This document shows, piece after piece, positions 4,445-52,293 of a DNA stretch of 64,000 nucleotides; within the stretch, counting starts at the first letter, position 1, and the number at the start of each line of letters is the position of its first letter. Made by a program: the position numbers and the translations under genes. This DNA is from Elusimicrobia bacterium RIFOXYA2_FULL_47_53 (GTDB taxonomy: Bacteria; Elusimicrobiota; Endomicrobiia; Endomicrobiales; XYA2-FULL-47-53). Under the pieces are notes generated by a model. That model was not told the origin of the DNA. It did no database searches and saw nothing but the letters and a program-made list of their open reading frames with translations. The stretch is from contig MGVE01000016.1 of assembly GCA_001800315.1 (NCBI GenBank), positions 3,432 through 67,431 of the forward strand, in the 5' to 3' direction.

Positions 4445-4452
4445 AGTGAGGT

Positions 4453-5874
4453 TTACGCGGGGGGGAGGCTGAAAGTAAATTTGCTTCCTTTTCCAAGTTC
4501 GCTTTCAACCGAGACCCTGCCGCCCATTGATTCCATAATTCCTTTCACGATTGCGAGGCCAAGACCGGTGCCCTTTGGCTTTGGGTTCTTGCCCTGGGTG
4601 CCGATTATCTGCTCAAATTTATCAAATATTTTGTCCAGTTTATCGGAAGGTATTCCTATGCCGCTGTCGCGCACCGAAACAAATATGAGTTTCTGCTTTT
4701 CGTCGTAACCGGCGCCCACGGAAATCGCCCCTTCCTGCGGTGTGAACTTTACGGCGTTGCTTAGAAGGTTAATAAGCACCTGCCTCGTCCTGTCCGGGTC
4801 CCCTAATGCAGGTGGAAGTTTTTCCGGCGCCTCTGAAGTAAATACAATATGCTTTTCGTCAAATTGGGGTTTAAACAACTGAATAGTTTCAGTAATGACG
4901 CCGAGGAGATCCAGCGTCTGGAGCGATACTTCCATCTTTCCGCGCTCTATCTTCGCCACATCCAGAAGGTCGTCAATAAAACGGCTGAGGCGCAGGGCGC
5001 AGTTTTTCATTATTTCAAGGTATTCCTTCTGCTTGTCGTTAATGGCTCCGGCCGTGCCTTTAAAAAACAGGTCTATGTAGAGCTTAAGGGAAAGCAGAGG
5101 GGACCGCAGTTCGTGGGTTACGCTTGATACAAAATCGCTCTTCATCTGGTCAAGCTCTTTAAGCTTTTCGCTCATCTTGTTAAATTCCGCGGCCAGATCT
5201 CCCAGTTCATCTTTGGTTTCAACGGATATTTTGTGGTCCAGCTTGCCCTGCCCGATTATACCGGCCCCCTGGGCCAGAATTTTTATAGGTTTCGTCATCA
5301 TGGCGGTCAACACAAAAGCGCCCAGAAGCCCGCAGAGCAGAGCCGCCGCAGACACAAGCATGATTCTTTTGCGCGCTCCGGATAAGGCGTCTTCAACTTC
5401 TTTATTAATCAATTCCTGATAAAACCCCAGCCTTACGGTTCCCTGACGGTCCTCACTGACCACGACCGGCATGGACAAATCAAGCAGATCCCGGCCGTCG
5501 CCGCCCTTGTATTTAATGACAGTATAATCCGAAGCCGCGAAGGCCTTTTTACTTACCTCGTCGCCCGGGACGGCTCCCAGAAGGTTGATATCGGTATGCG
5601 CCAGGATCCTGCCCGTACCGTCGGTGACCATGGCGTAGGCGAGCCCCTTTGTATTCTTAATTAGTTTCAGGTAATTGAGAAGAATTATCTCATCTTTGAC
5701 AATCAAAGATTCCTTGGCGGCCTGAGCCAGGCTTTTGACCATTCCGGCCCTGCTGTTTTCAAACTCTCTTACCAGAAAGCGGCTCTCGGAAATTATGAAC
5801 GAAACGCTCACTCCCGAAATAATGATAATTACAAGAAGACTGATAAGCAGGCTGAATTTAGTTTTTAATCTCAT
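4453..5874 (-). CDS. membrane sensor histidine kinase (2 TM + periplasmic sensor, HAMP, HisKA, HATPase)
   Basis: N-terminal TM and a second TM before a HAMP-like DELGDLAAEFNKM. H-box VTHELRSPL. SNAVKFT, DSGIGI, GTGLGLAI. There is an 8-nt gap to the downstream kinase. Confidence 0.85.
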   Translation of the reverse strand: MRLKTKFSLLISLLVIIIISGVSVSFIISESRFLVREFENSRAGMVKSLAQAAKESLIVKDEIILLNYLKLIKNTKGLAYAMVTDGTGRILAHTDINLLGAVPGDEVSKKAFAASDYTVIKYKGGDGRDLLDLSMPVVVSEDRQGTVRLGFYQELINKEVEDALSGARKRIMLVSAAALLCGLLGAFVLTAMMTKPIKILAQGAGIIGQGKLDHKISVETKDELGDLAAEFNKMSEKLKELDQMKSDFVSSVTHELRSPLLSLKLYIDLFFKGTAGAINDKQKEYLEIMKNCALRLSRFIDDLLDVAKIERGKMEVSLQTLDLLGVITETIQLFKPQFDEKHIVFTSEAPEKLPPALGDPDRTRQVLINLLSNAVKFTPQEGAISVGAGYDEKQKLIFVSVRDSGIGIPSDKLDKIFDKFEQIIGTQGKNPKPKGTGLGLAIVKGIMESMGGRVSVESELGKGSKFTFSLPPA

Positions 5875-11065: not shown

Positions 11066-11160
11066 TTTCGTGCGATAAAGGCAAATTCCGGCGAAAGCCG
11101 GAAGACGCAAAACCACGGGGCTTCTTGCCGACAACGGCACAGCCAGCCGGGTTACCGAAC
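11066..11160 (+). promoter_or_regulatory. probable c-di-GMP-I (GEMM-I) riboswitch aptamer
   Basis: GGCAAA + UUCCGGC-GAAA-GCCGGAA (a perfect 7-bp stem with a GNRA tetraloop) + GACGCAAAACC + a second hairpin (GGCU..UGCCG-ACAA-CGGCA..AGCC) + AGCCGGGUUACCGA. This has the same order and nearly the same conserved blocks as the V. cholerae Vc2 aptamer (GGCAAACC..GAAA..GGGACGCAAAGCC...GCGGGGUUACCGA). It lies in the 5-prime leader of the CDS starting at 11218. Confidence 0.65.
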
Positions 11161-11186
11161 AACAATGCAGTAGTCCATACATTGTT

Positions 11187-11214
11187 GCTCAGACTGTCTA
11201 AACGGCAGGTGAGC
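11187..11214 (+). promoter_or_regulatory. hairpin that can sequester the Shine-Dalgarno sequence (possible riboswitch expression platform)
   Basis: GCUCA-GA-CUGUC [UAAAC] GGCAG-G-UGAGC. The 3-prime arm contains AGGUGAG (11207-11213), 4 nt before the ATG at 11218. Confidence 0.4.
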
Positions 11215-11217
11215 GAA

Positions 11218-12717
11218 ATGGACACAAAAAAAGCGTTATCATTAGTTTTCTCGGTGGCTTTCAGCTTAGGGTTATTCGTTTCAGGCGCCCTTTCTGAAGT
11301 CATCATTATTATTGAACCCGATCCCGAGCCTATCATTGATCCTATAACCCCTCCGACCGAACCGCCCGTAGTAGAGCCTCCAGCTCCGCCCCAGCCTCTG
11401 GGAGCAGATATTAATGTTGACCCTAATGTAATTAACCTCAAGAGCAACAGAAACTATATAACCGCCTACATTGAACTCGCCTCTGATATTTCAGCCGCTG
11501 AAATCAAAGTATCATCCGTAAAAGTAACAACCGTCAACGGAACCGCGATAACTCCGGTAAGCGCTCTGCTTTCGCCCACGGCTATCGGCGATGAAAACGC
11601 GAATTCTATCCCTGATCTTATGGTTAAATTCAACTATGACGAACTAAAACCATATTTCTCGGAAGGCCCGCTGACAATCTCCATAAGCGGCGAGCTGAAC
11701 AACGGCACAGCCTTCAGCGGGGAAAATACTGTAAAAGCCACTTATCATGAAAGCAACGGAAATTCCAATCAGCAAACCGTAAATACTCAGTCAGCGGTAA
11801 AAACTGAAAAAAACTTCAAATTCACGCTTGGCAACAATGTCCCTGCCGGAGCGTATGTAAGAAAGGCTCTGGTCTGGGAGCAGAAACTCCCTAAACTGGA
11901 GGCTCAAAAAGAGCTATGGTGGTACAAGGCTGAGAAAAACTGGCAGGCTATTCTTGGACATCTGTCCAATGAGAGCTATTCTAATGTCCTGCGAGGCACT
12001 GGCTACGAGTGGGATGTGATAAACGAGCTCAACGAGAACCGCACATTAGGCCTAAACGAAGTGGTCGTCAGGCTGGACAACGAGAGAAAGAACACTTATC
12101 CCGTTCTCGTGCTTGTCTGCGATACGCCGTCTCAGGACGCGGAAGAACGGATGACAGCGTCAATGTATGGTTTAAATCCAATCGGTGAAAAAGCCAAATT
12201 CGTAAAGAAAGGATCTAACCCCGACAAAACAATAACGCTGTATTACAATGAGAGCGATCTGCGCGGGGAAGCTGAAAGCGACCTTAAAATATATTACTGG
12301 AGTGAAGCCGTAAATGAGTGGCAGGTCGCCCCGGACTGCACTATTGACTATGCTGACAACAGCATCAGCTGTCAGAGCGATGTCAGCACCTTTTACCGGA
12401 TTATGGCCGTAAAACCCGCGCCGGCGCAACCCGAGGAGGCGGCTCCGGCCGCTCCCAATACCCTTAAACAGAACTATCCCAATCCCTTCAATCCGGCCAC
12501 AACCATTGAGTACTCCGTTTCCCAGGACTGCCATGTGACTTTGAAGCTTTACAATGTCGCGGGAGAGCTTGTAGCGACAATAGTGGATGAATTCCAGTAC
12601 GCCGGCAGCCACTCGGTGTACTACGACGGGGGAGAGCGCCTCTCCCGCGGGATATACTTCTACCAGCTTATAGCCGGCAATTTTGTTGACACCAGAAGAA
12701 TGGCGGTTTTGAAATAA
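11218..12717 (+). CDS. secreted protein with a Pro-rich linker and a canonical T9SS type-A C-terminal sorting domain
   Basis: I chose the start at MDTKKALSLVFSVAFSLGLFVSGALS (signal peptide) rather than the track start at 11125, which lies inside the riboswitch. C-terminus LKQNYPNPFNPATTIEYSV...VTLKLYNVAGELV...GIYFYQL...RRMAVLK. Confidence 0.8.
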   Translation: MDTKKALSLVFSVAFSLGLFVSGALSEVIIIIEPDPEPIIDPITPPTEPPVVEPPAPPQPLGADINVDPNVINLKSNRNYITAYIELASDISAAEIKVSSVKVTTVNGTAITPVSALLSPTAIGDENANSIPDLMVKFNYDELKPYFSEGPLTISISGELNNGTAFSGENTVKATYHESNGNSNQQTVNTQSAVKTEKNFKFTLGNNVPAGAYVRKALVWEQKLPKLEAQKELWWYKAEKNWQAILGHLSNESYSNVLRGTGYEWDVINELNENRTLGLNEVVVRLDNERKNTYPVLVLVCDTPSQDAEERMTASMYGLNPIGEKAKFVKKGSNPDKTITLYYNESDLRGEAESDLKIYYWSEAVNEWQVAPDCTIDYADNSISCQSDVSTFYRIMAVKPAPAQPEEAAPAAPNTLKQNYPNPFNPATTIEYSVSQDCHVTLKLYNVAGELVATIVDEFQYAGSHSVYYDGGERLSRGIYFYQLIAGNFVDTRRMAVLK

Positions 12718-15200: not shown

Positions 15201-16703
15201 ATGAAAGTTGAACTCGCGGGATTTAATGTAGACACAAGCGTATTAAAAGAGCTGGAGGTTAAATGCGGTAAAAGGGAAGACATTACCCCTGAGGTTTTAT
15301 CAGCGGCCTACGCGCGCATAAGCCGCGATCCGAGAAACATAACCGAAATACGGCAGTTCGCGAGAACCGAAGTGGAGCGCTCCAGAAAATCCAATTCAAC
15401 CATAATATTTAAGATGGGCCACCACTCCGTAGCCGAACACGCCGTTTTTAACATGGATATCATCGGGCTTTCCAGGTTCGCCATGGAGGAACTGGAAAAG
15501 TTCCGCCTCTGCTCCTACACGGAGAAGTCTCAAAGATATATCACCCTGGACAAAGACTTCGTGACACCCGCGGAAATCAGGAATACGCCGCTGGAGAACC
15601 TTTTTACCGAAACCATAAAACTTCAGAACTCGGCGTATTTTGAGTTTTACGAAAAATTGAAAACCCATGTTTTCAGGAAAAACTCCGGGCTCGCCGCTGA
15701 TGAAAAAAACCACAACTTGCTTGAGGGCTGGGCCAAGGAAGACGCCCGCTACATAACTTCTCTCGCCACCGAATCTCAGGTGGGGCTTACGATGAACGCG
15801 AGAAACGCGGAGCTTATGCTGCGCCGCTTTGCTTCCAGCGCCCTCCCGGAAATTAATGAACTCGGCGCTAAGATTTACGAACAGATTTCGGTCGTGGCCC
15901 CCTCAATCGTAATTTTCCACCAGGCAAACGACAAAGACCAGAAAACCTACCCGGAACTCCATAAGCTTTTGTCCGGATATTCTTCCGAAAAACAGAAATC
16001 TGAAAAGGATGTGGCTTTGGTTGATTATTCAAAGAACGGGGATTTAATCGTCGCGGCCGCGCTTATGCACGCTTCCACGAACCTTCCGTTTGAAGACTGC
16101 CTTTCGCAGGTAAAAAAGATGCCGAAAGCAAAACTCGGATATATCTACAAAACCTCCTGGAAGAACCACCAGCTTTATGATTCCATGCTCAGGGAGTACG
16201 AATTTGTTAACCTGACATACAATATAATTCTTTCCTCGGCCTGTTTCGGGCAGCTTAAGAGGCACAGGATGTCCACAATCACCGCACAGAACTATGACCC
16301 CGCCTTAGGCATAACTATGCCTGAGTCAATTGAGGAGATAGGAGAGGAAAAACGCTTCAAAGAGGTTGTGTCCAGGTCTGAGGACGCTTACTTTAAGATT
16401 CTTAAGAAATTTCCGCTGGCCGCGCCATACATATTAAACAACTGCCACAGGAAACGCGTTCTTATGCGCGTGAACGCCAGGGAAATGTATTCCATCTCCC
16501 GCCTGCGCGAGGACGCCCACGCGCAGTGGGACATCCGCAATGTATCGGGAGCGATGGCGGCGCTCGCAAAAAAAGCAATGCCCAGGGTATTTGGCCTTAT
16601 AGGCGGAAAAGATCAGTACGGCAAAATATACTCCTCTGTTTTCGGCAGGCCGCCAAAAGTGGTGGCCGCGGAACTCCCCGGCGCGAGAAAAATTAGCTCC
16701 TGA
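15201..16703 (+). CDS. thyX: FAD-dependent thymidylate synthase, long tandem-domain form
   Basis: There are two ThyX-like halves. The N-half has HHSVAEHAVFNMDI..SR....EL.KFR..SYTEKSQRY. The C-half has QLKRHRMST (the RHRxxS ThyX motif). Confidence 0.75.
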   Translation: MKVELAGFNVDTSVLKELEVKCGKREDITPEVLSAAYARISRDPRNITEIRQFARTEVERSRKSNSTIIFKMGHHSVAEHAVFNMDIIGLSRFAMEELEKFRLCSYTEKSQRYITLDKDFVTPAEIRNTPLENLFTETIKLQNSAYFEFYEKLKTHVFRKNSGLAADEKNHNLLEGWAKEDARYITSLATESQVGLTMNARNAELMLRRFASSALPEINELGAKIYEQISVVAPSIVIFHQANDKDQKTYPELHKLLSGYSSEKQKSEKDVALVDYSKNGDLIVAAALMHASTNLPFEDCLSQVKKMPKAKLGYIYKTSWKNHQLYDSMLREYEFVNLTYNIILSSACFGQLKRHRMSTITAQNYDPALGITMPESIEEIGEEKRFKEVVSRSEDAYFKILKKFPLAAPYILNNCHRKRVLMRVNAREMYSISRLREDAHAQWDIRNVSGAMAALAKKAMPRVFGLIGGKDQYGKIYSSVFGRPPKVVAAELPGARKISS

Positions 16704-23181: not shown

Positions 23182-23292
23182 AATTCACCGTATCAATCAA
23201 GCTTGTGACAAAGTTTGTAAAACACTTGTAAAATAACTAAGAATATCGCAGTATCTCAGTTGTTATGTTGTTTACAAATTCAGGGAGATAAA

Positions 23293-24849
23293 ATGACCTC
23301 GGTTAAGCCAAATCCAGAAAAGCGAAATCTGAGCAGAATTAAATGCGTTTTGCCCGTAAAATTAGTTGACATAAATTTGGTCCAGGAGGAATTTTTCGTT
23401 GAATGTGTCAACATAAGCAAGACTGGGATGTCAATAGTCAGCAATATGGACAACATATCAACCCCAATAGAGGTATTGCTTGACCCCTACAACACTATGC
23501 TTAAAAAAGCTGATACGCTCCAGGTATCAGCTGAAATCAAATGGGTAAAGAAATTCCATGACGGAAAAGCATTTTATTACGGGCTTACTTTTATTAACCT
23601 GTCACCCGAAAACAAGAATGATATTGATCGTTTTGTTGAATCGGTAGCCGACTTAGTAGCAAGCGCCCAATCGGGCAACGGTGTTTATGTTCCCAAAAAC
23701 AGCCAGCTCAATTATAACAAGGACTTTATAATTAATAAGCGCCTAAAATGGCTGTCAGAAAAAACAAATGTGGAATATAAAAACATTTCTAACTTTACGG
23801 TTGATACCGAGTCAATGAAAGGCAATATAGAAAACTGCATTGGGGCCGTGCAAGTCCCGCTCGCAGTCGCAGGCCCCATAAAAGTAAACGGACAATATGC
23901 TAAGGGAGACTTTTATATTCCTCTTTCTACTACCGAAGGCGCCCTCGCAATGACATATGACCTCGGTTGCAGGGTAATATATAAGGCTGGCGGCGCAAAC
24001 ACAAAGATAATTAAAGATGAAGTTCATATTTCGCCGGTATTTAAGCTTAACAGCATTGCTGAAGGCGATGAATTTATTGACTGGATAAATAACCATTTTG
24101 AACAGATTAAACAGCGTGCAGAAAGCACAACAAGGTACGGCAAGCTGTTGCGTACTGAATGTATAAAGATGGGCCTAAAGATAATTGTTAAATTCATTTA
24201 TTCAACTGGCGACGCCCAGGGATTAAATATGATTAATAAAGGGACCGATGCCTCATGTAAATATATAGTTGAACAGAAAAAAATTGAATATTACCACAGG
24301 GCTAACTACTCCGGAATCAAGAAACTCAACATGGACAATATATATAACGGCAACGGCAAGGCGGTTGTCGCTGATGTTACTATTCCAAAGAACATATTGC
24401 GTGCTTTGCGAGTTACACCCGAGGAAATGGTTGAATATTACAACACCTGCCTTTTAGCAAGTACCTATGCCGGCATGATTGGCATTAATGCCCACATAGC
24501 AAACGGGATCACGGCCATGTTTATCGCCTGCGGCCAGGATGTAGCGGATATTTCGGTTTCCAGCGTAGGTTTTATGTCCTACGAACTTACCAATAAGGGT
24601 GATTTATACGGAAGTCTTTACATACCAAACCTATTTGTTGGTACCGTAGGTGGAGGAACAAAATTGGGTGGTCAGCGTGAATGTCTTGACATGATGGGGT
24701 GCTCGGGGACCGGCAGTTCAAAAAAGTTTGCAGAGCTCGTCACGGCCACTGCATTAGCCGGCGAAATAGCTGTCGTCTCGGCACTTCTCAATAACAACTA
24801 TGTCCAAGCGCACGAAAAGTACGGTCGCGCAAAACGGTCAGTAATATAA
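23293..24849 (+). CDS. PilZ domain fused to a class-I-like HMG-CoA reductase catalytic domain
   Basis: I took the start at MTSVK, after RBS AGGGAGA. PilZ motifs: RNLSR (RxxxR) and, 25 aa later, NISKTG (N-x-S-x-x-G). HMGR blocks: ENCIGAVQVPLAVAGP, STTEGALAM, GDAQGLNMINKG, VGTVGGGT. Confidence 0.75.
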   Translation: MTSVKPNPEKRNLSRIKCVLPVKLVDINLVQEEFFVECVNISKTGMSIVSNMDNISTPIEVLLDPYNTMLKKADTLQVSAEIKWVKKFHDGKAFYYGLTFINLSPENKNDIDRFVESVADLVASAQSGNGVYVPKNSQLNYNKDFIINKRLKWLSEKTNVEYKNISNFTVDTESMKGNIENCIGAVQVPLAVAGPIKVNGQYAKGDFYIPLSTTEGALAMTYDLGCRVIYKAGGANTKIIKDEVHISPVFKLNSIAEGDEFIDWINNHFEQIKQRAESTTRYGKLLRTECIKMGLKIIVKFIYSTGDAQGLNMINKGTDASCKYIVEQKKIEYYHRANYSGIKKLNMDNIYNGNGKAVVADVTIPKNILRALRVTPEEMVEYYNTCLLASTYAGMIGINAHIANGITAMFIACGQDVADISVSSVGFMSYELTNKGDLYGSLYIPNLFVGTVGGGTKLGGQRECLDMMGCSGTGSSKKFAELVTATALAGEIAVVSALLNNNYVQAHEKYGRAKRSVI

Positions 24850-24883: not shown

Positions 24884-27040
24884 TTGATGAACTTATCGTT
24901 TGTTGCCGCATCACTATTGACGGCTGTGGTCAGCCTGGCCTTCTCCGTATTCGTATACGCGAAGAGACACTCGCTGAAAGCTAATCGTGTTTGGGGATTA
25001 TTTGGAATAAGTTGTGCCTTATGGAGTTTGGGGTTAGGAATGATGTCTTTTGCCCCAAACGAACAGATAGCGCTGTTTTGGCTCAAATATGTCCACTATG
25101 TCGGAGCTATTTTTATCCCGCCGATTTTCTTCCATTTCGTCACGGTCCTTATAGAAAATGACTACACAAAACAAGGCAGGCGAATGCTCGCCATCGCTTA
25201 TACACTGGCGGGCCTGCTTCTGATCGCAAATTTTACCGGAGTGCTTGCAACTGTCAAACCGGTTTCTTACTTTCACTATTACACGGCTCCAAAAGCTTTA
25301 TATAATGTTTTTGGCCTGTATTTTCTGTTCTATGTAGTTTACTCGCTTTACCTGCTGCTTAAGGCGTATTTGAACGCAACAGATATTATTCGGCGTAACC
25401 AGCTCAAATACCTTCTGCTCGGCATGACTGTTGGTTTTATTGGCGGCAGCACGGCATTCTTCCCTGTCTATGACATAGAAATATTCCCGTTTGGGATGTA
25501 TTTTGCGTCTAGCCATGTCGCAATTGTATCTTACGCAATGATAAAATTCAGGCTTATGGATATAAGGATAGCTGTTACCAGGGCAGGCATATTCCTTACC
25601 GTATATATGTTGGTCTTAGGCCTGCCATTCTGGTATTTGTTTGCCTACGGATTAAGCATACAACTCTACATTGCTACGATAGTGCTTGCGACTCTCGGCC
25701 CCATTATTTACCGATACCTGGATGAAAAAGCCGAAGAGTTGCTGTTGGCAGCTCAGCGTCATTACCAGAAACTGCTTGTTGATGCGGCAAGCGGTATGAC
25801 CGAACAACATTCGCTCAGCAAATTATTAAAACTAGTTGTTTATCTGGTTAAACGAATCGTAAAGGTCTCATACGCGGCAATACTTCTTTACGATAAAGAA
25901 ACTAACAGCTTTATACTAAAAGAAATACGCGCTTCCGAGAAAATGGCCAGCCTAAGCGCACCGTTCATAATAGATAGCACTCATTATTTATTCCACCGCA
26001 TCAACGAATCCGACGAACCTTTCCTTTTTAATGAACTTCCTAAGTATGTGCAGGACGCGTTTAATTTTCCCATAAAACCGGGTCTTATAGTTCCGTCCTA
26101 CTATCAAAAAAAGCCCATCGGAGTTCTTTTCCTTGGGAACAAGATGAACAACGAGATTTTCACACAGGATGATATTCGTGTGTTTAAAATTCTTGCGAGC
26201 CAGTCTGCTCTGGCTGTTGAAAATTGCATATTTATTACCGAGTCTAAGAATTCTCAGGAAAAGATTTTTCACGCCGAAAAGCTCGCCAGCGTCGGAGGAA
26301 TGGCCGAAGGCATCGCCCACCAGATAGGAAACAGGTTAAACCAGTTTTCTGTCGCTGCCGGCGAACTGGAACTGGAGCTGGGGTCTATAAAGATGAATCA
26401 CAGCGAGTATTTAAAAACAGAATCTTTCAGAACCAGCGTGGACTATATATCAAAACTTGTCACATCTATTTTGTCAAATGTAAAAAAAACCGACGCGGTT
26501 ATACGGAGCATACTGAACTTCGCCAAGCCCGGGAGCGAGAATAAAGTTGAATTCTCTCTCATTGAAATGACAAACTCGGTAACCGAACTTATCTGCATCA
26601 AACATCGCCTCAGGGAATTTCCGTACCTGAAGTTTGACATAAAATGTTCCGATGTGCTTTTCGCCATTAAAGAACAGATGTCCGAGTCAATTTTCAATTT
26701 ATTGGACAATTCCTTTGAATCAATTCAGGATAAGATACTCAGGTCGGCGGAAGCCGGACAACCATATCCGGATCCAAACATAACCGTATCATTGAAGGAA
26801 AAAGACGGCTTATGGCAGCTCGCGGTATCTGATAATGGAATGGGAATAAGCGATTCCGTAAAGCGCAAGATCTTCGCTCCGTTTTTTACAACTAAATCAT
26901 CCACAAAATCCGGCTCCGGCATAGGCATGTATGTGGTTAAACGAATCATTGAAGAACGCCACAACGGTAAAATATGGTTTGAGTCCCAGGAAGGCCAGGG
27001 CACTACTTTTTTCATAGAAATTCCGCGCGGGGACAACTGA
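24884..27040 (+). CDS. sensor histidine kinase with N-terminal 7-TM domain, GAF, HisKA-like and HATPase domains
   Basis: About 270 aa of multi-pass membrane region. GAF-like middle region. H-box-like GIAHQIGNRLN. ATPase boxes DNSFES, DNGMGI, GSGIGMYV. Confidence 0.8.
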   Translation: MMNLSFVAASLLTAVVSLAFSVFVYAKRHSLKANRVWGLFGISCALWSLGLGMMSFAPNEQIALFWLKYVHYVGAIFIPPIFFHFVTVLIENDYTKQGRRMLAIAYTLAGLLLIANFTGVLATVKPVSYFHYYTAPKALYNVFGLYFLFYVVYSLYLLLKAYLNATDIIRRNQLKYLLLGMTVGFIGGSTAFFPVYDIEIFPFGMYFASSHVAIVSYAMIKFRLMDIRIAVTRAGIFLTVYMLVLGLPFWYLFAYGLSIQLYIATIVLATLGPIIYRYLDEKAEELLLAAQRHYQKLLVDAASGMTEQHSLSKLLKLVVYLVKRIVKVSYAAILLYDKETNSFILKEIRASEKMASLSAPFIIDSTHYLFHRINESDEPFLFNELPKYVQDAFNFPIKPGLIVPSYYQKKPIGVLFLGNKMNNEIFTQDDIRVFKILASQSALAVENCIFITESKNSQEKIFHAEKLASVGGMAEGIAHQIGNRLNQFSVAAGELELELGSIKMNHSEYLKTESFRTSVDYISKLVTSILSNVKKTDAVIRSILNFAKPGSENKVEFSLIEMTNSVTELICIKHRLREFPYLKFDIKCSDVLFAIKEQMSESIFNLLDNSFESIQDKILRSAEAGQPYPDPNITVSLKEKDGLWQLAVSDNGMGISDSVKRKIFAPFFTTKSSTKSGSGIGMYVVKRIIEERHNGKIWFESQEGQGTTFFIEIPRGDN

Positions 27041-28721: not shown

Positions 28722-30194
28722 ATGAACGAAAAAGTTGTAGTCGCGCTTGACCTCGGCACTACCGGCAACAGGGCGATAGCCTTTAACAAAAGAGGCGAAA
28801 CCGTTGCCAAATCCTATTACGAGTTTCCTCAATACTTCCCTGAACCCGGCTGGGTTGAACACGATCCTCTTGAACTTTACGGCACCGCATTAAAAGCGCT
28901 TAAGGATGTCGTCGCTGAAGCCGGCGCGCAGAACATTTCTTCAATCGGCATAACCAACCAGCGCGAAACCACTGTTATATGGGATAAAAAAACAGGCAAA
29001 CCAATTTATAACGCGATTGTCTGGCAGTGCAGGCGAACCGAAAAAATATGCGCGGAGCTTAAAAAATATTCCGGAATTTTCAAAGAGAAAACCGGACTGT
29101 TCCTTGACCCCTATTTTTCCGGCACAAAAATAAAATGGATTCTGGACAATGTGGAGGGCGCCCGCGAAAAAGCCCGGAGGGGAGAACTTTTGTTCGGAAC
29201 CCCCGACACCTGGGTTTTGTGGAACCTGACGGCGGGCAAAACGCACGCTACCGAGCCGAGCAACGCCAGCCGCACGCTAATCTACAATATTAACTCCCTG
29301 TCTTTTGACAAAGAACTCCTTGAAATTCTTTCTATTCCCGCCGGTATTTTACCGCAGGTTAAAGACTCCGACGCGTTTTTTGGCCTGACAGACAAAAGCG
29401 TCACAGGCCTTGAAATACCCGTCCGTGGTATGCTCGGAGACCAGCAGGCGTCGTTATTCGCTCACAACGGCTGGGAAAAAGGCACAGCCAAAGCGACATA
29501 CGGCACGGGCATATTCATGTTAACAAATACCGGAGATAAGCTGGTCAGCAGCCCGTCTCTTGTTTCAACTATCGCATCAAAAACCGCCGAAGGCGTAAGT
29601 TACGCCCTGGAAGGAAGCATATTCTCGGGCGGCGCCGCTGTCCAGTGGCTGAGAGATAATATTGAAATTATCGGCTCCGGAGCGGAAACCGAAAAAATGG
29701 CCTGCTCTCTTGAAGGAAACGATAACATTTATTTTGTTCCGGCATTCCAGGGACTGGGCGCCCCCTACTGGGATTCCAACGCAAGGGGCCTCTTGATAGG
29801 CATAACCCGTAAAACTTCAAAAGAAAATATCGCCAGGGCCGTGATAGAGTCAATGGCTTATCAGGTCAAAGATGTCGCGGACGAAATGAAAAAGGCCTTC
29901 GGCGCGGAATTAGCGAAACTACGGGTTGACGGCGGCGCCTGCGCCAACAACTTTCTCATGCAGTTCCAGTCGGACCTTCTCGGCTTCCCGGTGGAACGCC
30001 CGCGAATAATTGAAACAACCGCTTTGGGCGCCGCGGGAATTAGCGCCATAGCCTCCGGTTTCTGGAGCAGGGAAGAGTTTCAAAAGGTAATGAGCGTGGA
30101 AAGAATTTTTAGGCCGGCCATGAATCCGGAGAAAGCCGCCTCGCTCTATGCTCAATGGCAAAAAGCCGTGGAACGGTCAAGAAGCTGGGCGTAA
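28722..30194 (+). CDS. glpK: glycerol kinase
   Basis: ALDLGTTGNRAIAF, GWVEHDP, GITNQRETTVIWD, FGTPDTWVLWNLT, GDQQASLF. Full-length FGGY kinase. Confidence 0.9.
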   Translation: MNEKVVVALDLGTTGNRAIAFNKRGETVAKSYYEFPQYFPEPGWVEHDPLELYGTALKALKDVVAEAGAQNISSIGITNQRETTVIWDKKTGKPIYNAIVWQCRRTEKICAELKKYSGIFKEKTGLFLDPYFSGTKIKWILDNVEGAREKARRGELLFGTPDTWVLWNLTAGKTHATEPSNASRTLIYNINSLSFDKELLEILSIPAGILPQVKDSDAFFGLTDKSVTGLEIPVRGMLGDQQASLFAHNGWEKGTAKATYGTGIFMLTNTGDKLVSSPSLVSTIASKTAEGVSYALEGSIFSGGAAVQWLRDNIEIIGSGAETEKMACSLEGNDNIYFVPAFQGLGAPYWDSNARGLLIGITRKTSKENIARAVIESMAYQVKDVADEMKKAFGAELAKLRVDGGACANNFLMQFQSDLLGFPVERPRIIETTALGAAGISAIASGFWSREEFQKVMSVERIFRPAMNPEKAASLYAQWQKAVERSRSWA

Positions 30195-32894: not shown

Positions 32895-34016
32895 TTGGTT
32901 AAATATATCTGGGAAAAGAAAGATTGGTTTGACTTCAACTATGACCATAAAACTTTGATTGGTCCTCTTGCCAAGGCACGCCAGTTGCAGGGCAATTTGC
33001 TTGGCAGAATATCGCAGCTTAACATAACCCAGGAAACAGAAGCTCAAGCAGAGGTACTTATTGAAGAAACTGTAAGGACAGCAGAAATAGAAGGCATGGC
33101 TTTAAATAGAGATGCGGTAAGGTCTTCAGTATCGGCAAGACTTGGGCTACCCCAAGGCGTGGGCATTAAAGATGTAAACGCTGATGGCTTAATAGATGTA
33201 TTGCTTGATGCTATAAGAATGAACGATAAACCACTCTCAATAGAGCGGCTTAATAGTTGGCAGGCTGCGCTCTTTCCTACCAGTTATTCCGGACTTAAGA
33301 AAATCCGGGCAGGTGAATTGCGCGGTACTGAGCCGATGCAGGTGGTCTCAGGCCCAATCGGTAAAGAAATAATACATTTCCAAGCGCCTCCTAAAGAGCA
33401 AGCAGTGCGAGAGCTTAAGCTTTTTGTAAACTGGTGGAACAATTCGTTTAAAACTAATACCATGGATGGACTGTTACGCGCCGGTGCAGCACATTTACGG
33501 TTTATAACCATTCATCCCTACGAAGACGGAAACGGACGAATAGCAAGAGCCTTGACTGATATGGCTTTAGCGGAAGATGAAAAGATAAAAGTAAGGTTCT
33601 ACAGCGTCTCATCTCAAATAATGAGGGATAGAAAAGAATACTATGATGTTTTGGAGAATGTGCAGAACTGCAGGATTGATACTACAGAATGGTTTTTGTG
33701 GTTTATAGAGTGCATAACAGCATCAATAATTAATTCTCAAGACATTATCGCAAATGTCTTTAAACGCGCTGATTTTTGGAAAAAGCATACCCAAACACAA
33801 ATAAATGAAAGACAAAGAAAAGTTATTTCAAAAATCCTTGAAGCTGGCCCAGGCGGGTTTATGGGTGCCCTTACAACCAGGAAGTATGTCGGAATGACCA
33901 GGACTAGCAGGGCAACAGCTATTCGTGAAATCAACGATTTGGTTGAAAAAGGAATATTGATACAAATCGGAGAGAAGGGCAGAAGTGTCAAATATGAAAT
34001 TGTCTGGAGCAGATGA
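32895..34016 (+). CDS. Fic-family protein (DUF4172-like N-terminus, class II inhibitory helix, C-terminal wHTH)
   Basis: Fic motif HPYEDGNGRIAR. Inhibitory motif TAEIEG. N-terminal WEKKDWFDFNYD. TTG start. Confidence 0.85.
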   Translation: MVKYIWEKKDWFDFNYDHKTLIGPLAKARQLQGNLLGRISQLNITQETEAQAEVLIEETVRTAEIEGMALNRDAVRSSVSARLGLPQGVGIKDVNADGLIDVLLDAIRMNDKPLSIERLNSWQAALFPTSYSGLKKIRAGELRGTEPMQVVSGPIGKEIIHFQAPPKEQAVRELKLFVNWWNNSFKTNTMDGLLRAGAAHLRFITIHPYEDGNGRIARALTDMALAEDEKIKVRFYSVSSQIMRDRKEYYDVLENVQNCRIDTTEWFLWFIECITASIINSQDIIANVFKRADFWKKHTQTQINERQRKVISKILEAGPGGFMGALTTRKYVGMTRTSRATAIREINDLVEKGILIQIGEKGRSVKYEIVWSR

Positions 34017-34125
34017 TCATATTTTTAAAACCACAAACGATTTAGTGTAAATTATGGTTACATTATAGCTTTGGATAAATAATAGGATATTAACAAATAT
34101 CGAAAAGTTAATAAGCAATAGCTGA

Positions 34126-34251
34126 CAGAGCGGAAAAGATTTGGTAACTGTTTCCAAACTGCTTGGCCACTCCAGCATCAGAAATACAATGATATACGCC
34201 CACTTAGCCCCAAAACACATCTCAGAATCAATTGTTAACCTTCACTATTGA
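34126..34251 (+). pseudogene. 41-codon remnant of a tyrosine recombinase/integrase C-terminus
   Basis: Translates to QSGKDLVTVSKLLGHSSIRNTMIYAHLAPKHISESIVNLHY*, i.e. the conserved LGHSSI..T..YAHL block including the catalytic Tyr. An in-frame stop lies immediately upstream, so no full gene is present. Confidence 0.7.
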
Positions 34252-34346
34252 TAATTCGGCTCAATATTTATCGGCAATTTATCGGCATTATAACGGCAAT
34301 TATGCCCTAAATATGCTATAATTAGACTAACAACGAGGGGAAATAT

Positions 34347-35456
34347 ATGACTAATAGACAAATATGGGAACCACGCTATATTATTAATTCGGTAACAGCT
34401 AAGGCATTGATGGAAATTGAAGCTGCAAAAGCTGTAATTGAACATACCCCATTGCCTGCTGCTATTGAAGCAAAACTGCGCCATAGCGCGCGAGTTCGCT
34501 CTACTCACTATTCTACTCGTATTGAGGGCAATAAGCTAACGCTTAAAGAAGCCCAGAATGTAATCGAAAAAAGGAAAGGAACCTTTCATGGTAGAGAAAG
34601 AGATGTCAACGAAGTCCGGAATTATTGGGATGCTTTACTCAAAGTTGAAGATTGGGCATCAAAGAAAGTTGAATTCAGTGAAGATTTGATAAAACGGCTA
34701 CATGCTATAGTGGTAAATGGAAAACGAAACAAACCAACACAATACCGTACTGAGCAAAATGTAATACGCGATTCTGCCTCAGGTGGAATTGTCTATTTGC
34801 CACCTGAAGCAAAAGATGTTTCTGCTCTTATGGGATCAATGGTCAGATGGGTAAGAGCCGCTGAAAGGAATATGATACCTGTACCACTTATAGCATCTCT
34901 AATTCATTACCAATTCGTAACTATTCACCCATATTATGACGGCAACGGCAGGACCGCGCGACTCCTTGCAACTTTTATTCTTCAGAGAGACGGTTATGGA
35001 TTAAATGGTTTCTTTTCAATGGAAGAACATCATGCGCTTGATCTTGAAACCTATTATACATCCCTGGCTGTTCATAAACATCACAATTATTACAGTGGCA
35101 GAGCAGATGCTAACCTTACTTCATGGGTAGAATACTTTGTAAAGCTGCTTGCCGGTGTATTTACGAAAGCAAAAGACGAGACCCTATCTTATGTAAAAGT
35201 TGGAGCATCCCAAGAACCTGAAAACCTACGGAAGCTTGATCATAGAGCAAGAACTGTATTATCGTTGTTTGGCAAAAAAGACAAAATAAATTCTCAAGAT
35301 ATAGTTAGCATTTTAGGGCTTTCTAACAGAATGGTGAGAATATTGCTAAAGCAGTGGGTAGAAGATGGATGGCTTACCATGGCAGACCCCTCAAACAAAA
35401 GCAGGGCATATACTTTAACGGCAATTTATCGGAAATTTATCGGTAATAAGTATTGA
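34347..35456 (+). CDS. Fic-family protein (class II inhibitory helix, C-terminal wHTH)
   Basis: Fic motif HPYYDGNGRTAR. Inhibitory motif STRIEG. An extended -10 (TGcTATAAT, 34314-34322) lies upstream. Confidence 0.85.
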   Translation: MTNRQIWEPRYIINSVTAKALMEIEAAKAVIEHTPLPAAIEAKLRHSARVRSTHYSTRIEGNKLTLKEAQNVIEKRKGTFHGRERDVNEVRNYWDALLKVEDWASKKVEFSEDLIKRLHAIVVNGKRNKPTQYRTEQNVIRDSASGGIVYLPPEAKDVSALMGSMVRWVRAAERNMIPVPLIASLIHYQFVTIHPYYDGNGRTARLLATFILQRDGYGLNGFFSMEEHHALDLETYYTSLAVHKHHNYYSGRADANLTSWVEYFVKLLAGVFTKAKDETLSYVKVGASQEPENLRKLDHRARTVLSLFGKKDKINSQDIVSILGLSNRMVRILLKQWVEDGWLTMADPSNKSRAYTLTAIYRKFIGNKY

Positions 35457-35602: not shown

Positions 35603-35675
35603 GGTGCGGTACCCAAGTGGTTAAGGGGGCGGTCTGCAAAACCGTCATTCGTCGGTTCAACTCCGACCCGCACCT
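35603..35675 (+). tRNA. tRNA-Cys (GCA)
   Basis: Manual cloverleaf: acceptor GGTGCGG/CCGCACC; anticodon stem GCGGT/ACCGT with loop CTGCAAA (anticodon GCA); T-arm GTCGG-TTCAACT-CCGAC. It has the A13:A22 mismatch and U73 discriminator characteristic of tRNA-Cys. No CCA is encoded. Confidence 0.9.
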
Positions 35676-44567: not shown

Positions 44568-45728
44568 ATGGAGGGAAAGATCATGGACAACACGCTTAAG
44601 CTTCTTGTCGTTGAAGACAATCCTGAGGATATTGAGCTTGTAAGCAGGATGCTGACAAAGAAACAGTTCGTAAATTTTGAAGTTGAGACAGTTGCGCGAA
44701 TGTCTGAAGCCGTCCTGCGCCTTGAGAAGGGCGGGGTGGATCTCATATTGCTGGATCTCGGGCTTCCGGACAGCCAAGGGATGGGCACATACCGGGAAAT
44801 TCAGCGCGCGGCCCCAAAAACTCCGGTAATCATTTTAAGCGGAAATGAAGATTTTGACTTGGCGGTTGGGATTATAAAAGAGGGGGCGCAGGATTTTTAT
44901 GTCAAGGGAAGTGTTAAACAGGAAGCTCTTGTTCGTTCTATCCATTATGCTCTTGAGCGCAAGCGGGCAACGGAAAAACTGAATATATTTAACGCTGAGC
45001 TTGAAATAAGAGTTGAAAAACGCACCAAAGAGCTTGAGGAGGCAAATAAGCAGTTGAAATCTTTCTCTTATTCAATATCGCACGACCTGAAGGCGCCGAT
45101 CAGGGCGATAGAAGGATTTTCCGCGATTCTTGAGAGCGATTATTCAAAAACCATGGACACTGAGGCAAGAAGGCTTGTTTCGCTGATAAGGGGAGGGGCG
45201 TTAAAAATGAAACAGCTTGTAGAGGACTTATTGCTATTTCATACATATTTAATGAAAGAACTCGCGAGCAAACAGGTAAATATTTACAACCTCGCGCAGT
45301 CAGTACTTGCTGAAATCAAAAGCCACAATACAACAGGCAAGGCTGTTGACGCGAAAATTAATCCCTTGCCTGACGCCCTATGCGACAGCGCTCTGATACG
45401 GCAAGTTTTTATAAATCTTATCTCAAACGCGGTAAAATTTACTTCTAAAACTGAAACACCAGAAATAGAAGTTGGCGGCGAAATAATTAATGGATTCAAC
45501 CGCTATTATGTCAAAGACAATGGCGTAGGTTTTGATATGGCATATATGGATAAACTTTTCGGCGTTTTCAACAGGCTTCATAAAGAATCGGATTTTGAAG
45601 GCACCGGTATCGGCCTTGCGATAGTGAAAAGGATTATTGAGCGCCACGGCGGAGTGGTTTGGGCTGAATCTAACCTGAACAAAGGGGCAACTTTTTATTT
45701 CACCTTGCCGCAGCTGAATTCTAATTGA
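44568..45728 (+). CDS. response-regulator receiver fused to a histidine kinase (REC-HisKA-HATPase)
   Basis: LLVVEDNPED...DLGLPDSQG. H-box SYSISHDLKAP. SNAVKFT, DNGVGF, GTGIGLAIV. ATG 44583, after GGAGGG, is an alternative start. Confidence 0.85.
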   Translation: MEGKIMDNTLKLLVVEDNPEDIELVSRMLTKKQFVNFEVETVARMSEAVLRLEKGGVDLILLDLGLPDSQGMGTYREIQRAAPKTPVIILSGNEDFDLAVGIIKEGAQDFYVKGSVKQEALVRSIHYALERKRATEKLNIFNAELEIRVEKRTKELEEANKQLKSFSYSISHDLKAPIRAIEGFSAILESDYSKTMDTEARRLVSLIRGGALKMKQLVEDLLLFHTYLMKELASKQVNIYNLAQSVLAEIKSHNTTGKAVDAKINPLPDALCDSALIRQVFINLISNAVKFTSKTETPEIEVGGEIINGFNRYYVKDNGVGFDMAYMDKLFGVFNRLHKESDFEGTGIGLAIVKRIIERHGGVVWAESNLNKGATFYFTLPQLNSN

Positions 45729-52174: not shown

Positions 52175-52206
52175 GCTGACTATATTTTTTTACCCATCAG
52201 GTGGAT

Positions 52207-52239
52207 AAAAGTCAGTAATGCGGGGATATATGATATTGT
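52207..52239 (+). promoter_or_regulatory. bipartite conserved motif, copy 1 (AAAAGTCAGTAAT-N14-TATTGT)
   Basis: GTCAGT at 52211-52216, a 17-nt spacer, then TATTGT at 52234-52239. It lies 55 nt upstream of the REC-AraC start. Confidence 0.45.
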
Positions 52240-52293
52240 GTATTCTTAACGCTATTTATACAATTATCAAAAGCGCAAACCGTGAGGAAAACA

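What the first reader, a model, noticed from the sequence alone, without database searches (positions are those of the whole stretch)
23293..24849. PilZ domain fused to an HMG-CoA reductase catalytic domain
Seen in sequence: the N-terminal ~120 aa carry both canonical c-di-GMP-binding PilZ motifs with correct spacing: RNLSR (RxxxR) and, 25 residues later, NISKTG (D/N-x-S-x-x-G). The remaining ~400 aa carry class-I-type HMGR blocks: ENCIGAVQVPLAVAGP, STTEGALAM, GDAQGLNM, GTVGGGT. Established knowledge: PilZ domains are c-di-GMP receptors. HMGR is the committed step of the mevalonate pathway, or works degradatively. Inference: this would put isoprenoid/HMG-CoA metabolism under direct second-messenger control, which I do not recognise as a described regulatory link. 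No other mevalonate-pathway gene is in the window. The gene is followed 35 nt later by a 7TM-GAF histidine kinase and preceded by GIDE/LemA membrane proteins. Together with the GEMM-I candidate at 11.1 kb, it points to an active c-di-GMP network.
Basis: partly seen in the sequence, partly recalled or inferred. Interest (0 to 1): 0.7.

Follow-up and report, generated by a model that had tools for sequence, protein, structure and literature searches.

The report
PilZ-fused HMGR-like reductase with kinase partner
The gene really does fuse a c-di-GMP-sensing PilZ domain to an enzyme with the HMG-CoA reductase fold, but that enzyme belongs to a bacterial branch that most likely reduces fatty or other acyl thioesters rather than making mevalonate, and across many phyla it is paired with one particular membrane sensor kinase, a pairing nobody seems to have described.

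Summary
ORF 23293-24849 (518 aa) carries a PilZ domain and a class-I HMG-CoA-reductase (HMGR) domain, both above Pfam thresholds. Both c-di-GMP motifs are intact, and the structure models match PilZ receptors and HMGR. The fusion is not a chimera: 61 of the 120 closest protein clusters carry it.

The catalytic tetrad and NADPH motifs are intact, but the HMG contacts are replaced: R590→I, S684→R, D690→I, K735→T and L862→Y. Two of these changes are markers of FcrA, an HMGR homologue shown in 2025 to reduce fatty acyl-CoA and not HMG-CoA. No mevalonate gene lies in the window or in about 30 related loci.

This subclade is instead followed directly by a HisKA_7TM-GAF histidine kinase, in 15 of 15 loci outside one basal branch. 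The reverse also holds: all 15 close kinase relatives have the reductase next to them. PilZ can be replaced by a receiver domain. Some operons add a FabF-type ketosynthase and an ACP, and the PilZ or receiver domain then sits on the ketosynthase.

Best reading: a signal-gated acyl-thioester reductase that works with a membrane sensor kinase. The substrate, the product and the kinase's role are inferred. This is a new variant of known kinds.

The parts
23293..24849 (+). Gene for the 518-aa PilZ plus HMGR-fold reductase (identical to OGS10825.1)
   Evidence: ORF and translation. RBS GGGAGA before the ATG. Pfam PF07238 plus PF00368. AlphaFold2 model with pLDDT 91.7 and pTM 0.84.
23320..23640 (+). 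PilZ domain (aa 10-116), followed by a C-terminal helix (aa 105-126)
   Evidence: Pfam 40.5 bits against cut-off 22.5. A profile of the N-terminal domains finds PP4397, YpfA/MotI, Alg44, YcgR and PA4608 in the PDB. The top 42 Foldseek hits of the model are all PilZ proteins, most solved with c-di-GMP bound.
23323..23337 (+). RxxxR c-di-GMP motif (R11-N-L-S-R15)
   Evidence: R11 and R15 are invariant in an alignment of 19 fused relatives that share only 13-30% identity; those relatives were chosen for having the motifs.
23410..23427 (+). [D/N]xSxxG c-di-GMP motif (N40-I-S-K-T-G45)
   Evidence: S42 and G45 are invariant in the same alignment.
23731..24828 (+). Class-I HMGR-fold catalytic domain (aa 147-512). 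Catalytic residues E215, K343, D416 and H507; NADPH motifs D307-AQGLN312 and G450-TVGGGT; remodelled pocket I246, R336, I342, T385 and Y503.
   Evidence: Pfam 356.6 bits. PDB 6hr7 at E 5e-87. Foldseek 6hr7 at 1e-35 and 1dqa at 7e-32. Residue mapping.
24884..27040 (+). Co-transcribed sensor histidine kinase: HisKA_7TM (aa 11-227), GAF (aa 309-446), H-box IAHQIGNRL (His479, nt 26318-26320) and HATPase_c (aa 601-715). The likely start is the ATG at 24887.
   Evidence: Pfam. H, N, G1 and G2 boxes. No terminator-like site between 24849 and 24884. The same kinase subfamily follows the reductase in every related locus outside one basal branch.
23205..23234 (+). Promoter-like site (GTGACA-18-TAAAAT) 59 nt upstream of the ATG. 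Weak evidence only.
   Evidence: The number of such sites in the region does not exceed the shuffled expectation (16 found against 14.1 expected).

Best explanation
The gene encodes a two-domain enzyme. The N-terminal PilZ domain is a c-di-GMP receptor. The C-terminal domain has the class-I HMGR fold and full catalytic machinery, so it should carry out an NAD(P)H-dependent four-electron reduction of an acyl thioester to a primary alcohol.

It belongs to the non-mevalonate, FcrA-like radiation of bacterial 'class-I HMGRs'. Its substrate is therefore most likely a fatty or other acyl-CoA or acyl-ACP rather than HMG-CoA.

The enzyme forms a conserved operon with a 7TM-GAF histidine kinase. Its N-terminal regulatory domain is interchangeable with a receiver domain. 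I therefore read the reductase as the gated enzymatic arm of a membrane-sensing signalling module. In this model c-di-GMP (or, in receiver-domain variants, phosphotransfer from the kinase) switches the enzyme, and so switches production of a lipid alcohol used for envelope or neutral lipids or as a signal.

Shown here: the domain identities, the motif and catalytic-residue conservation, the pocket substitutions, and the gene linkage. Inferred: c-di-GMP binding, the substrate, the product, the direction of control, and what the kinase senses.
For: PilZ:
- Pfam score above threshold.
- Both motifs present with canonical spacing.
- The motif residues are the only invariant positions, apart from G97, among fused relatives chosen for carrying both motifs (13-30% identity).
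- Profile and fold matches to solved c-di-GMP-bound PilZ proteins.

Catalysis:
- E, K and D of the tetrad are conserved in 120 of 120 top hits, and H in 107 of 120.
- The DAxGxN motif is conserved.
- The fold matches HMGR.

Not mevalonate:
- R590→I (no Arg among 142 clade members), S684→R, D690→I, K735→T, L862→Y (F or Y in 139 of 142).
- These positions contact the HMG moiety (PMC9500038).
- Loss of K735 and a bulky residue at 862 are FcrA markers. FcrA reduces C14 and longer acyl-CoA but not HMG-CoA, and most genomes carrying it lack the mevalonate pathway (PMC11948995).
- The TIGR00533 equivalog cut-off is passed only by the archaeal control.
- There are no mevalonate genes in the window or in any related locus.
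- Published reconstructions of groundwater Elusimicrobia show the MEP pathway.

Module:
- The kinase lies directly downstream in 15 of 15 independent loci of the clade outside one basal branch.
- In the reverse search, 15 of 15 close kinase relatives have the reductase adjacent.
- Stop and start codons overlap by 4 bp in L001 and L004.
- Receiver-domain fusions to the reductase exist.
- Operons with PilZ-KS or REC-KS plus ACP plus reductase plus kinase exist, and their ketosynthases carry the Cys-His-His triad.
Against: - No biochemistry exists for this subclade.
- Position 684 is Arg, not the Glu proposed to exclude HMG in FcrA. A conserved Arg seven residues before the catalytic Lys could bind a substrate carboxylate, as I recall Arg261 does in class-II HMGR. 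HMG-CoA or another acidic acyl group is therefore not excluded.
- The window has no ketosynthase, ACP, wax synthase or ether-lipid gene, so the source of substrate and the fate of product are open.
- I could not check the rest of the genome for mevalonate genes.
- About 60% of PilZ-fused relatives lack one or both strict motifs, so c-di-GMP binding is not universal in the family.
- Gene adjacency does not say whether the kinase regulates the enzyme, senses its product, or both.
Confidence: 0.6

Rival explanations
1. One reading: a true HMG-CoA reductase whose activity is set by c-di-GMP, putting mevalonate and isoprenoid synthesis (or HMG-CoA or mevalonate catabolism) under second-messenger control.
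For: - Strong PF00368 match and the class-I fold.
- Complete catalytic tetrad and NADPH motifs.
- Conserved Arg336 could replace the lost basic residues in binding the HMG carboxylate (inference).
- Percent identity to archaeal HMGR equals that to an FcrA-type protein, 41% in each case.
Against: - HMG contacts R590, D690 and K735 are all lost, and an aromatic residue sits at 862 as in FcrA-type enzymes.
- No mevalonate-pathway neighbour in the window or in about 30 related loci. The neighbours are ketosynthase, ACP and kinases.
- The score is below the TIGR00533 equivalog cut-off, which the archaeal control passes.
- The host phyla are MEP users as far as the literature I could read shows.
- According to PMC11948995, no bacterial class-I HMGR had been characterised before FcrA.
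Confidence: 0.13
2. Signal synthase and receptor pair: the reductase (with ketosynthase and ACP where present) makes a small lipophilic alcohol or hydroxyketone that the adjacent 7TM-GAF kinase detects, as CqsA and CqsS do. PilZ ties signal production to c-di-GMP. This is a more specific version of the best explanation.
For: - Obligate pairing of the enzyme gene with one 7TM kinase subfamily, in both search directions.
- A dedicated FabF-type ketosynthase and an ACP in some operons suggest a specialised small product rather than bulk lipid.
- Regulatory domains sit on the first enzyme of the operon.
Against: - There is no evidence that any product is released or sensed.
- Receiver-domain fusions to the reductase fit the opposite flow, from kinase to enzyme, equally well.
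- No exporter or further tailoring genes are conserved.
Confidence: 0.2
3. The HMGR-fold protein is mainly a metabolite-binding co-sensor or scaffold for the kinase, reporting NADPH or acyl-CoA status, and its chemistry is secondary. PilZ may serve as a protein-protein adaptor rather than a c-di-GMP receptor.
For: - Tight operon coupling, often with overlapping stop and start codons.
- Many fused relatives have degenerate PilZ motifs.
- CoA-contact residues S565, N567, R568 and K722 are poorly conserved.
Against: - Strict conservation of all catalytic residues and the NADPH motifs across 120 clusters argues for retained catalysis.
- The window protein and its nearest relatives keep both PilZ motifs intact.
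- Ketosynthase and ACP partners imply a real substrate stream.
Confidence: 0.07

Closest known systems
FcrA, the HMGR-like fatty acyl-CoA reductase (Grossi et al. 2025, ISME J, PMC11948995)
   Same: - Class-I HMGR fold with a conserved Glu/Lys/Asp/His tetrad.
- K735 replaced by a small residue, and L862 replaced by a bulky aromatic.
- Bacterial, with no mevalonate genes nearby.
- The same overall layout: an N-terminal accessory domain of about 120 aa, a linker, then the catalytic domain. A Chloroflexi FcrA-type protein is 515 aa and the window protein is 518 aa. Their catalytic domains are 41% identical, 323 bits.
- ACP fusions occur in both groups.
   Different: - Position 684 is Arg, where FcrA has Glu.
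- R590 and D690, which FcrA-type proteins keep, are hydrophobic here.
- The accessory domain is PilZ or a receiver domain, not Lad or FadD+ACP.
- The gene is tied to a 7TM-GAF kinase, not to wax synthase or ether-lipid genes.
- No characterised FcrA sequence was available for a direct tree, and the activity of this protein is untested.
Canonical class-I HMG-CoA reductase (human 1DQA; Methanothermococcus thermolithotrophicus 6HR7)
   Same: The fold (Foldseek E 1e-35), the catalytic tetrad, the NADPH motifs, and 41% identity to the archaeal enzyme.
   Different: - HMG contacts R590, S684, D690 and K735, and also L862, are all substituted.
- No mevalonate-pathway context.
- Carries a PilZ domain and has a kinase partner.
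PilZ-regulated enzymes and effectors (BcsA cellulose synthase, Alg44, YcgR, MotI, MapZ)
   Same: A PilZ beta-barrel with RxxxR and [D/N]xSxxG motifs attached to, or acting on, an output protein. The model matches these structures.
   Different: The output here is a cytoplasmic NAD(P)H-dependent thioester reductase. I found no report of such a PilZ partner.
CqsA/CqsS and LqsA/LqsS autoinducer synthase and membrane sensor kinase pairs (from my own knowledge)
   Same: An enzyme acting on acyl thioesters is encoded next to a polytopic membrane histidine kinase. This is a possible model for how the pair works.
   Different: The enzyme family (PLP-dependent CqsA) and the kinase sensor domain are unrelated. 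No evidence for a diffusible product exists here.

Membership tests
PilZ domain c-di-GMP receptor (PF07238) | Profile match above the curated threshold | tested here: met
   40.5 bits against a gathering score of 22.5, aa 10-116.
PilZ domain c-di-GMP receptor (PF07238) | N-terminal RxxxR motif | tested here: met
   R11-N-L-S-R15. Invariant in 19 fused relatives chosen for carrying both motifs.
PilZ domain c-di-GMP receptor (PF07238) | [D/N]xSxxG motif about 20-30 residues downstream | tested here: met
   N40-I-S-K-T-G45, 25 residues after R15. S42 and G45 are invariant in the same 19 relatives, which were chosen for carrying both motifs.
PilZ domain c-di-GMP receptor (PF07238) | Six-stranded beta-barrel fold | tested here: met
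   AlphaFold2 model of aa 1-128 with pLDDT 86.7. The top 42 Foldseek PDB hits are all PilZ proteins, including MotI, YcgR, Alg44, MrkH, MapZ and BcsA.
PilZ domain c-di-GMP receptor (PF07238) | Measured c-di-GMP binding | not testable with these tools
   Needs DRaCALA, ITC or MST on the purified protein.
Class-I HMG-CoA reductase (EC 1.1.1.34, mevalonate pathway) | HMG-CoA_red profile and fold | tested here: met
   PF00368 at 356.6 bits. 6hr7 at E 5e-87. Foldseek at 1e-35.
Class-I HMG-CoA reductase (EC 1.1.1.34, mevalonate pathway) | Catalytic Glu559, Lys691, Asp767 and His866 | tested here: met
   E215, K343, D416 and H507.
Class-I HMG-CoA reductase (EC 1.1.1.34, mevalonate pathway) | HMG-moiety contacts Arg590, Ser684, Asp690 and Lys735, plus Leu862 | tested here: not met
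   I246, R336, I342, T385 and Y503. The human enzyme, the M. thermolithotrophicus enzyme and two archaeal loci all keep R, S, D, K and L. The roles of these residues come from PMC9500038 and PMC11948995.
Class-I HMG-CoA reductase (EC 1.1.1.34, mevalonate pathway) | NCBIfam equivalog TIGR00533 score above its cut-off | tested here: not met
   333.5 bits against a cut-off of 441.8. The archaeal control scores 553.7, and all FcrA-type, ketosynthase-linked and kinase-linked proteins score 304-357. This is weak evidence because the model is centred on archaeal sequences.
Class-I HMG-CoA reductase (EC 1.1.1.34, mevalonate pathway) | Presence of the rest of the mevalonate pathway | tested here: inconclusive
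   None in the 64-kb window or in about 30 related loci.
FcrA (HMGR-like fatty acyl-CoA reductase, PMC11948995) | Catalytic tetrad kept while Lys735 is replaced by a small residue | tested here: met
   T385. No Lys at this position in 142 clade members.
FcrA (HMGR-like fatty acyl-CoA reductase, PMC11948995) | Leu862 replaced by a bulky residue (Trp in FcrA) | tested here: met
   Y503. Phe or Tyr in 139 of 142 clade members. The residue is aromatic but not Trp.
FcrA (HMGR-like fatty acyl-CoA reductase, PMC11948995) | Ser684 replaced by Glu | tested here: not met
   R336 (Arg, Lys or Gln across the clade), a reversal of charge.
FcrA (HMGR-like fatty acyl-CoA reductase, PMC11948995) | Placement inside the monophyletic FcrA clade | tested here: inconclusive
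   A neighbour-joining tree puts the kinase-linked clade beyond the FcrA-type and ketosynthase-linked groups, away from canonical HMGR. No characterised FcrA sequence was included, and there are no support values.
FcrA (HMGR-like fatty acyl-CoA reductase, PMC11948995) | NADPH-dependent reduction of C14 and longer acyl-CoA, with no activity on HMG-CoA | not testable with these tools
   Needs an enzyme assay.
HisKA_7TM sensor histidine kinase (partner gene) | PF16927 7TM domain, H-box histidine and HATPase_c | tested here: met
   PF16927 at 60.2 bits against 28.6, GAF_2 at 40 bits, and HATPase_c at 79.4 bits. H-box IAHQIGNRL and N, G1 and G2 boxes.

The most novel reading that the evidence does not exclude
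An unrecognised, widespread bacterial signalling system. An HMGR-fold thioester reductase, alone or with its own ketosynthase and ACP, synthesises a lipid-like signal. The co-encoded 7TM-GAF histidine kinase senses that signal. Synthesis is gated by c-di-GMP through PilZ, or by phosphorylation through a receiver domain. This would link second-messenger state to a quorum-sensing-like or membrane-state circuit in Elusimicrobiota, Nitrospirota, Omnitrophota, Planctomycetota and others.
Probability: 0.2. Interest if true: 0.85.

Novelty: new variant of a known kind. Interest (0 to 1): 0.6.

Why it matters
c-di-GMP is known to control motility, exopolysaccharide synthesis, adhesion and transcription. 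Direct control of an NAD(P)H-dependent lipid-type reductase would be a new class of output.

The finding also extends the newly recognised FcrA-like branch of 'HMG-CoA reductases'. It adds a large subclade that is wired into two-component and second-messenger signalling: 119 of the 120 closest clusters, from at least six phyla of mostly uncultured bacteria.

It gives the poorly understood HisKA_7TM sensor domain a conserved enzymatic partner, which makes its ligand experimentally approachable.

Practically, these genes are annotated as 'hydroxymethylglutaryl-CoA reductase'. Metabolic reconstructions could therefore wrongly infer a mevalonate step in these genomes.

Tried and rejected
1. I first split the relatives into 'canonical' and 'non-canonical' by R590 alone. 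After reading the FcrA paper and adding position 862, most of my 'canonical bacterial' group (Chloroflexi, Bacteroidota and others: R590, E/A/S684, W/F862) turned out to be FcrA-type. Only human, M. thermolithotrophicus, L068 and L072 are canonical.

2. TIGR00533 cut-off. My control at first seemed to show it does not discriminate, because Dyadobacter, Runella and Agitococcus also fail it. After the re-classification those controls are FcrA-type. The test is consistent with the conclusion but weak, because the model is centred on archaeal sequences.

3. A sequence-only PDB search with the 130-aa N-terminus found nothing. A profile search and a fold search were needed.

4. The seven-sequence kinase alignment was too divergent for a collection scan. 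A four-sequence alignment worked.

5. I asked whether the REC-HisKA-HATPase at 44568-45725 is the displaced third gene of the module. It is only 21-24% identical to the REC-kinases that follow the 7TM kinase elsewhere, so it is not.

6. A basal Actinomycetes and Bdellovibrionia sub-branch with the same I590/R684 signature has no kinase and no mevalonate genes. Its neighbours are GH65, GNAT, ETF and acyl-CoA dehydrogenase genes. It gave no control for substrate specificity.

7. Defence-system models (PADLOC) gave no hit for the reductase and only a trivial ATPase hit for the kinase.

8. Literature searches for PilZ or c-di-GMP together with HMG-CoA reductase returned only author-name noise or unrelated papers. 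'HMG-CoA reductase-like' plus ACP returned nothing. HisKA_7TM appears only in two census papers.

9. The promoter and terminator scans are not above the shuffled background and carry little weight.

10. An assembly chimera is rejected.
Full report
**1. The observation**

ORF 23293-24849 on the + strand encodes 518 aa. A GGGAGA ribosome-binding site precedes the ATG. Pfam calls PilZ (PF07238, 40.5 bits, cut-off 22.5, aa 10-116) and HMG-CoA_red (PF00368, 356.6 bits, aa 147-512).

The protein is identical to OGS10825.1 of 'Elusimicrobia bacterium RIFOXYB1_FULL_48_9'. A near-identical 518-aa protein was seen on 20 contigs. Among the 120 best-matching protein clusters, 61 are PilZ-fused, 2 are receiver-fused and 57 are unfused. 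The fusion is therefore real and recurrent, not a chimera.

The flanking GIDE and LemA genes and the downstream 7TM-GAF kinase are confirmed. So is a c-di-GMP-I-GGC variant riboswitch at 11071-11160.

**2. The PilZ domain**

The N-terminal domains of fused relatives are clearly homologous. In 19 relatives that carry the motifs and share only 13-30% identity with the window protein, the only invariant positions are R11, R15, S42, G45 and G97.

A profile of these domains finds PP4397, YpfA/MotI, Alg44, YcgR, PA4608 and BcsA in the PDB. An AlphaFold2 model of aa 1-128 (pLDDT 86.7) shows six strands and a C-terminal helix. Its top 42 Foldseek hits are all PilZ proteins, most of them solved with c-di-GMP bound.

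Only 25 of 65 N-terminally extended relatives keep both strict motifs. Nitrospirota subgroups have DIGLAG or NICAGG, or lack RxxxR altogether. Binding is likely for the window protein and its near relatives, but it is not universal in the family.

**3. The catalytic domain**

The full-length model is confident (pLDDT 91.7, pTM 0.84). It matches the archaeal and human HMGR structures.

In human numbering, the catalytic residues E559, K691, D767 and H866 correspond to E215, K343, D416 and H507. E, K and D are conserved in 120 of 120 top hits and H in 107 of 120. D653, G656 and N658 of the NADPH site are also conserved.

The residues that hold the HMG moiety are replaced:

| Human residue | Window residue | Across the clade |
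|---|---|---|
| R590 | I246 | no Arg in 142 members |
| S684 | R336 | Arg, Lys or Gln |
| D690 | I342 | mostly Ile or Val |
| K735 | T385 | no Lys |
| L862 | Y503 | Phe or Tyr in 139 of 142 |

The roles of the residues come from PMC9500038 and PMC11948995.

**4. The key precedent**

Grossi et al. [quoted passage not shown] FcrA does not reduce HMG-CoA and is not inhibited by statin. It occurs mostly in genomes without the mevalonate pathway.

Their markers are S684→Glu, loss of the Lys that forms a salt bridge with HMG (printed as Lys795, evidently Lys735), and L862→Trp. Their accessory domains are Lad and FadD+ACP. Neither the text nor the held supplement mentions PilZ, receiver domains or kinases.

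Scored on these markers, my set of 213 sequences falls into four groups:

| Group | Signature | Context |
|---|---|---|
| Canonical (human, M. thermolithotrophicus, two archaeal loci) | R590, S684, K735, L862 | mevalonate-type enzymes |
| FcrA-type (Chloroflexi, Bacteroidota and others) | R590, E/A/S684, W/F862 | some carry the PF25653 N-terminal domain |
| Ketosynthase-linked (Acidobacteriota, Planctomycetota) | hydrophobic 590, F684, E690, F862 | ACP and two ketosynthase genes upstream; a PlsC/DAGAT-like acyltransferase nearby in L059 |
| Kinase-linked (includes the window protein) | hydrophobic 590, R/K/Q684, non-K735, F/Y862 | 7TM-GAF kinase downstream |

The window's catalytic domain compares with other proteins as follows:
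- 55% identical to an unfused kinase-linked member.
- 47% identical to a ketosynthase-linked member.
- 41% identical (323 bits) to an FcrA-type protein.
- 41% identical (283 bits) to the archaeal HMGR.
- 34% identical to human HMGR.

**5. Genomic context**

In every locus of the kinase-linked clade found through the reductase, a HisKA_7TM(-GAF)-HATPase kinase follows the reductase directly. These loci are the window, L001/2, L003, L004, L005, L006/13, L007/8, L009, L010, L011, L012, L014, L015, L016 and L019, which makes 15 independent loci. In L001 and L004 the stop and start codons overlap by 4 bp.

The only exceptions are five loci of a basal Actinomycetes and Bdellovibrionia sub-branch.

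The reverse search started from the kinase's 7TM-GAF region. All 15 metagenome loci whose 7TM domain scores at least 210 bits carry the reductase next to the kinase. In 14 it lies directly upstream and in one it is divergent. More distant 7TM kinases instead have a divergent receiver gene.

No mevalonate gene occurs in any of these loci or in any scanned window ORF of 175 aa or more; six small ORFs (134-186 aa) and the 490-aa ORF at 28722-30194 were not scanned.

The architectural variants are informative:
- REC-reductase fusions (L007, L092, L101).
- A stand-alone REC gene 4 nt upstream of an unfused reductase (L014).
- A double-PilZ reductase (L012).
- An ACP-PilZ-reductase fusion with a ketosynthase upstream (L009).
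- REC-KS plus ACP plus reductase (L005, L107).
- PilZ-KS plus ACP plus reductase (L090).

The ketosynthases carry the Cys-His-His triad of elongating FabF-type enzymes, and the one ACP sequence I read (L005) has its DS serine. In the operons seen with a ketosynthase (L005, L090, L107), the regulatory domain sits on the ketosynthase, the first enzyme of the operon; L009, where PilZ lies on the reductase itself, is the exception. The reductase works alongside acyl-carrier chemistry.

**6. The kinase**

The window kinase has seven hydrophobic segments, a GAF domain, an H-box (IAHQIGNRL, His479) and N, G1 and G2 boxes. No terminator-like site separates it from the reductase gene. It is 29-43% identical to the kinases of the other loci.

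**7. Interpretation**

Shown by the analyses:
- A PilZ domain with intact c-di-GMP motifs is fused to a catalytically complete HMGR-fold reductase.
- The reductase's HMG pocket is remodelled in the direction of FcrA.
- The enzyme is linked to one 7TM-GAF kinase subfamily and is repeatedly associated with receiver, ketosynthase and ACP modules.

Inferred:
- The enzyme reduces an acyl-CoA or acyl-ACP thioester to an alcohol.
- c-di-GMP, or phosphorylation in REC variants, gates it.
- The kinase either controls the enzyme or senses its product.

The main caveat is Arg336. Characterised FcrA has Glu at this position. A conserved Arg close to the catalytic Lys could bind a substrate carboxylate, so an acidic acyl group, including HMG, is not excluded. 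The whole-genome check for mevalonate against MEP genes could not be run. Published reconstructions of groundwater Elusimicrobia show the MEP pathway.

**8. Novelty**

I found no paper linking PilZ or c-di-GMP to HMGR-family enzymes. I also found none linking HisKA_7TM kinases to them. The enzyme family (FcrA-like) and PilZ are each known. The fusion, the receiver-domain alternative and the obligate kinase partnership are a new variant.

Noticed in passing
window 11071-11160 (+): Rfam hit to the variant riboswitch family c-di-GMP-I-GGC (RF03167), 61.3 bits against a gathering score of 59. It lies just upstream of, and overlaps the annotated start of, a 530-aa ORF (11125-12717) with no Pfam match. 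A 308-aa ORF with no match follows. The ligand specificity of this variant class may differ from canonical c-di-GMP-I.
   Followed up: partly
L059 5095-14078 (Candidatus Angelobacter), and about 30 other Acidobacteriota, Thermoanaerobaculia and Planctomycetota loci (L017-L089): A separate HMGR-like class (hydrophobic 590, F684, E690, F862) lies in a conserved cluster of ACP, KS, KS-like and reductase genes. In L059 these are followed by a sigma70-r4/LuxR-type regulator, an amine-oxidase/desaturase-like flavoprotein, a PlsC/DAGAT-like acyltransferase and an ABC1 kinase. It looks like an undescribed lipid (ether or alkyl lipid?) pathway.
   Followed up: partly
L095 1564-6365 and L106 1567-6365: A ketosynthase gene is followed by two tandem 7TM-GAF kinases with no HMGR-like gene. 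This is a third arrangement linking this kinase family to acyl-chain enzymes.
   Followed up: no
L094, L097, L098, L099, L100 (kinase genes): The partner kinases in these Nitrospirota-type loci carry two HisKA_7TM domains in tandem, about 14 transmembrane helices.
   Followed up: no
window 46033-50097 (+) and L006 91-4338: A giant CheB-CheR-PAS-HisKA-HATPase(-REC) hybrid protein (1354 aa) lies 21 kb downstream in the window. A protein with the same unusual architecture (1415 aa) lies 4 kb upstream of the reductase-kinase pair in an Omnitrophota locus. This may be coincidence.
   Followed up: no
window 32895-35456 (+) and 35603-35675: Two adjacent Fic/DOC-family genes, one with DUF4172, sit immediately before a tRNA gene.
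   Followed up: no
window 2486-5874 (-), 44568-45725, 50108-53010: The window is dense in two-component genes: REC-GAF-PAS-HK, sCache-HAMP-HK, REC-HK, REC-GAF-PAS-HK and REC-AraC. No GGDEF, EAL or HD-GYP gene was seen among the ORFs scanned.
   Followed up: partly
P0125 and about 120 relatives (Chloroflexi, Calditrichota): FcrA-type proteins of about 515 aa carry the Pfam domain PF25653 'HMG-CoA_red_N' at the position where the window protein has PilZ. This is presumably the Lad domain of Grossi et al. Public sources still name these proteins hydroxymethylglutaryl-CoA reductase.
   Followed up: partly
window 15201-16703 (+): A 500-aa ORF with two stretches matching Thy1 (ThyX), about twice the usual length. 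It may be a tandem or fused flavin-dependent thymidylate synthase.
   Followed up: no
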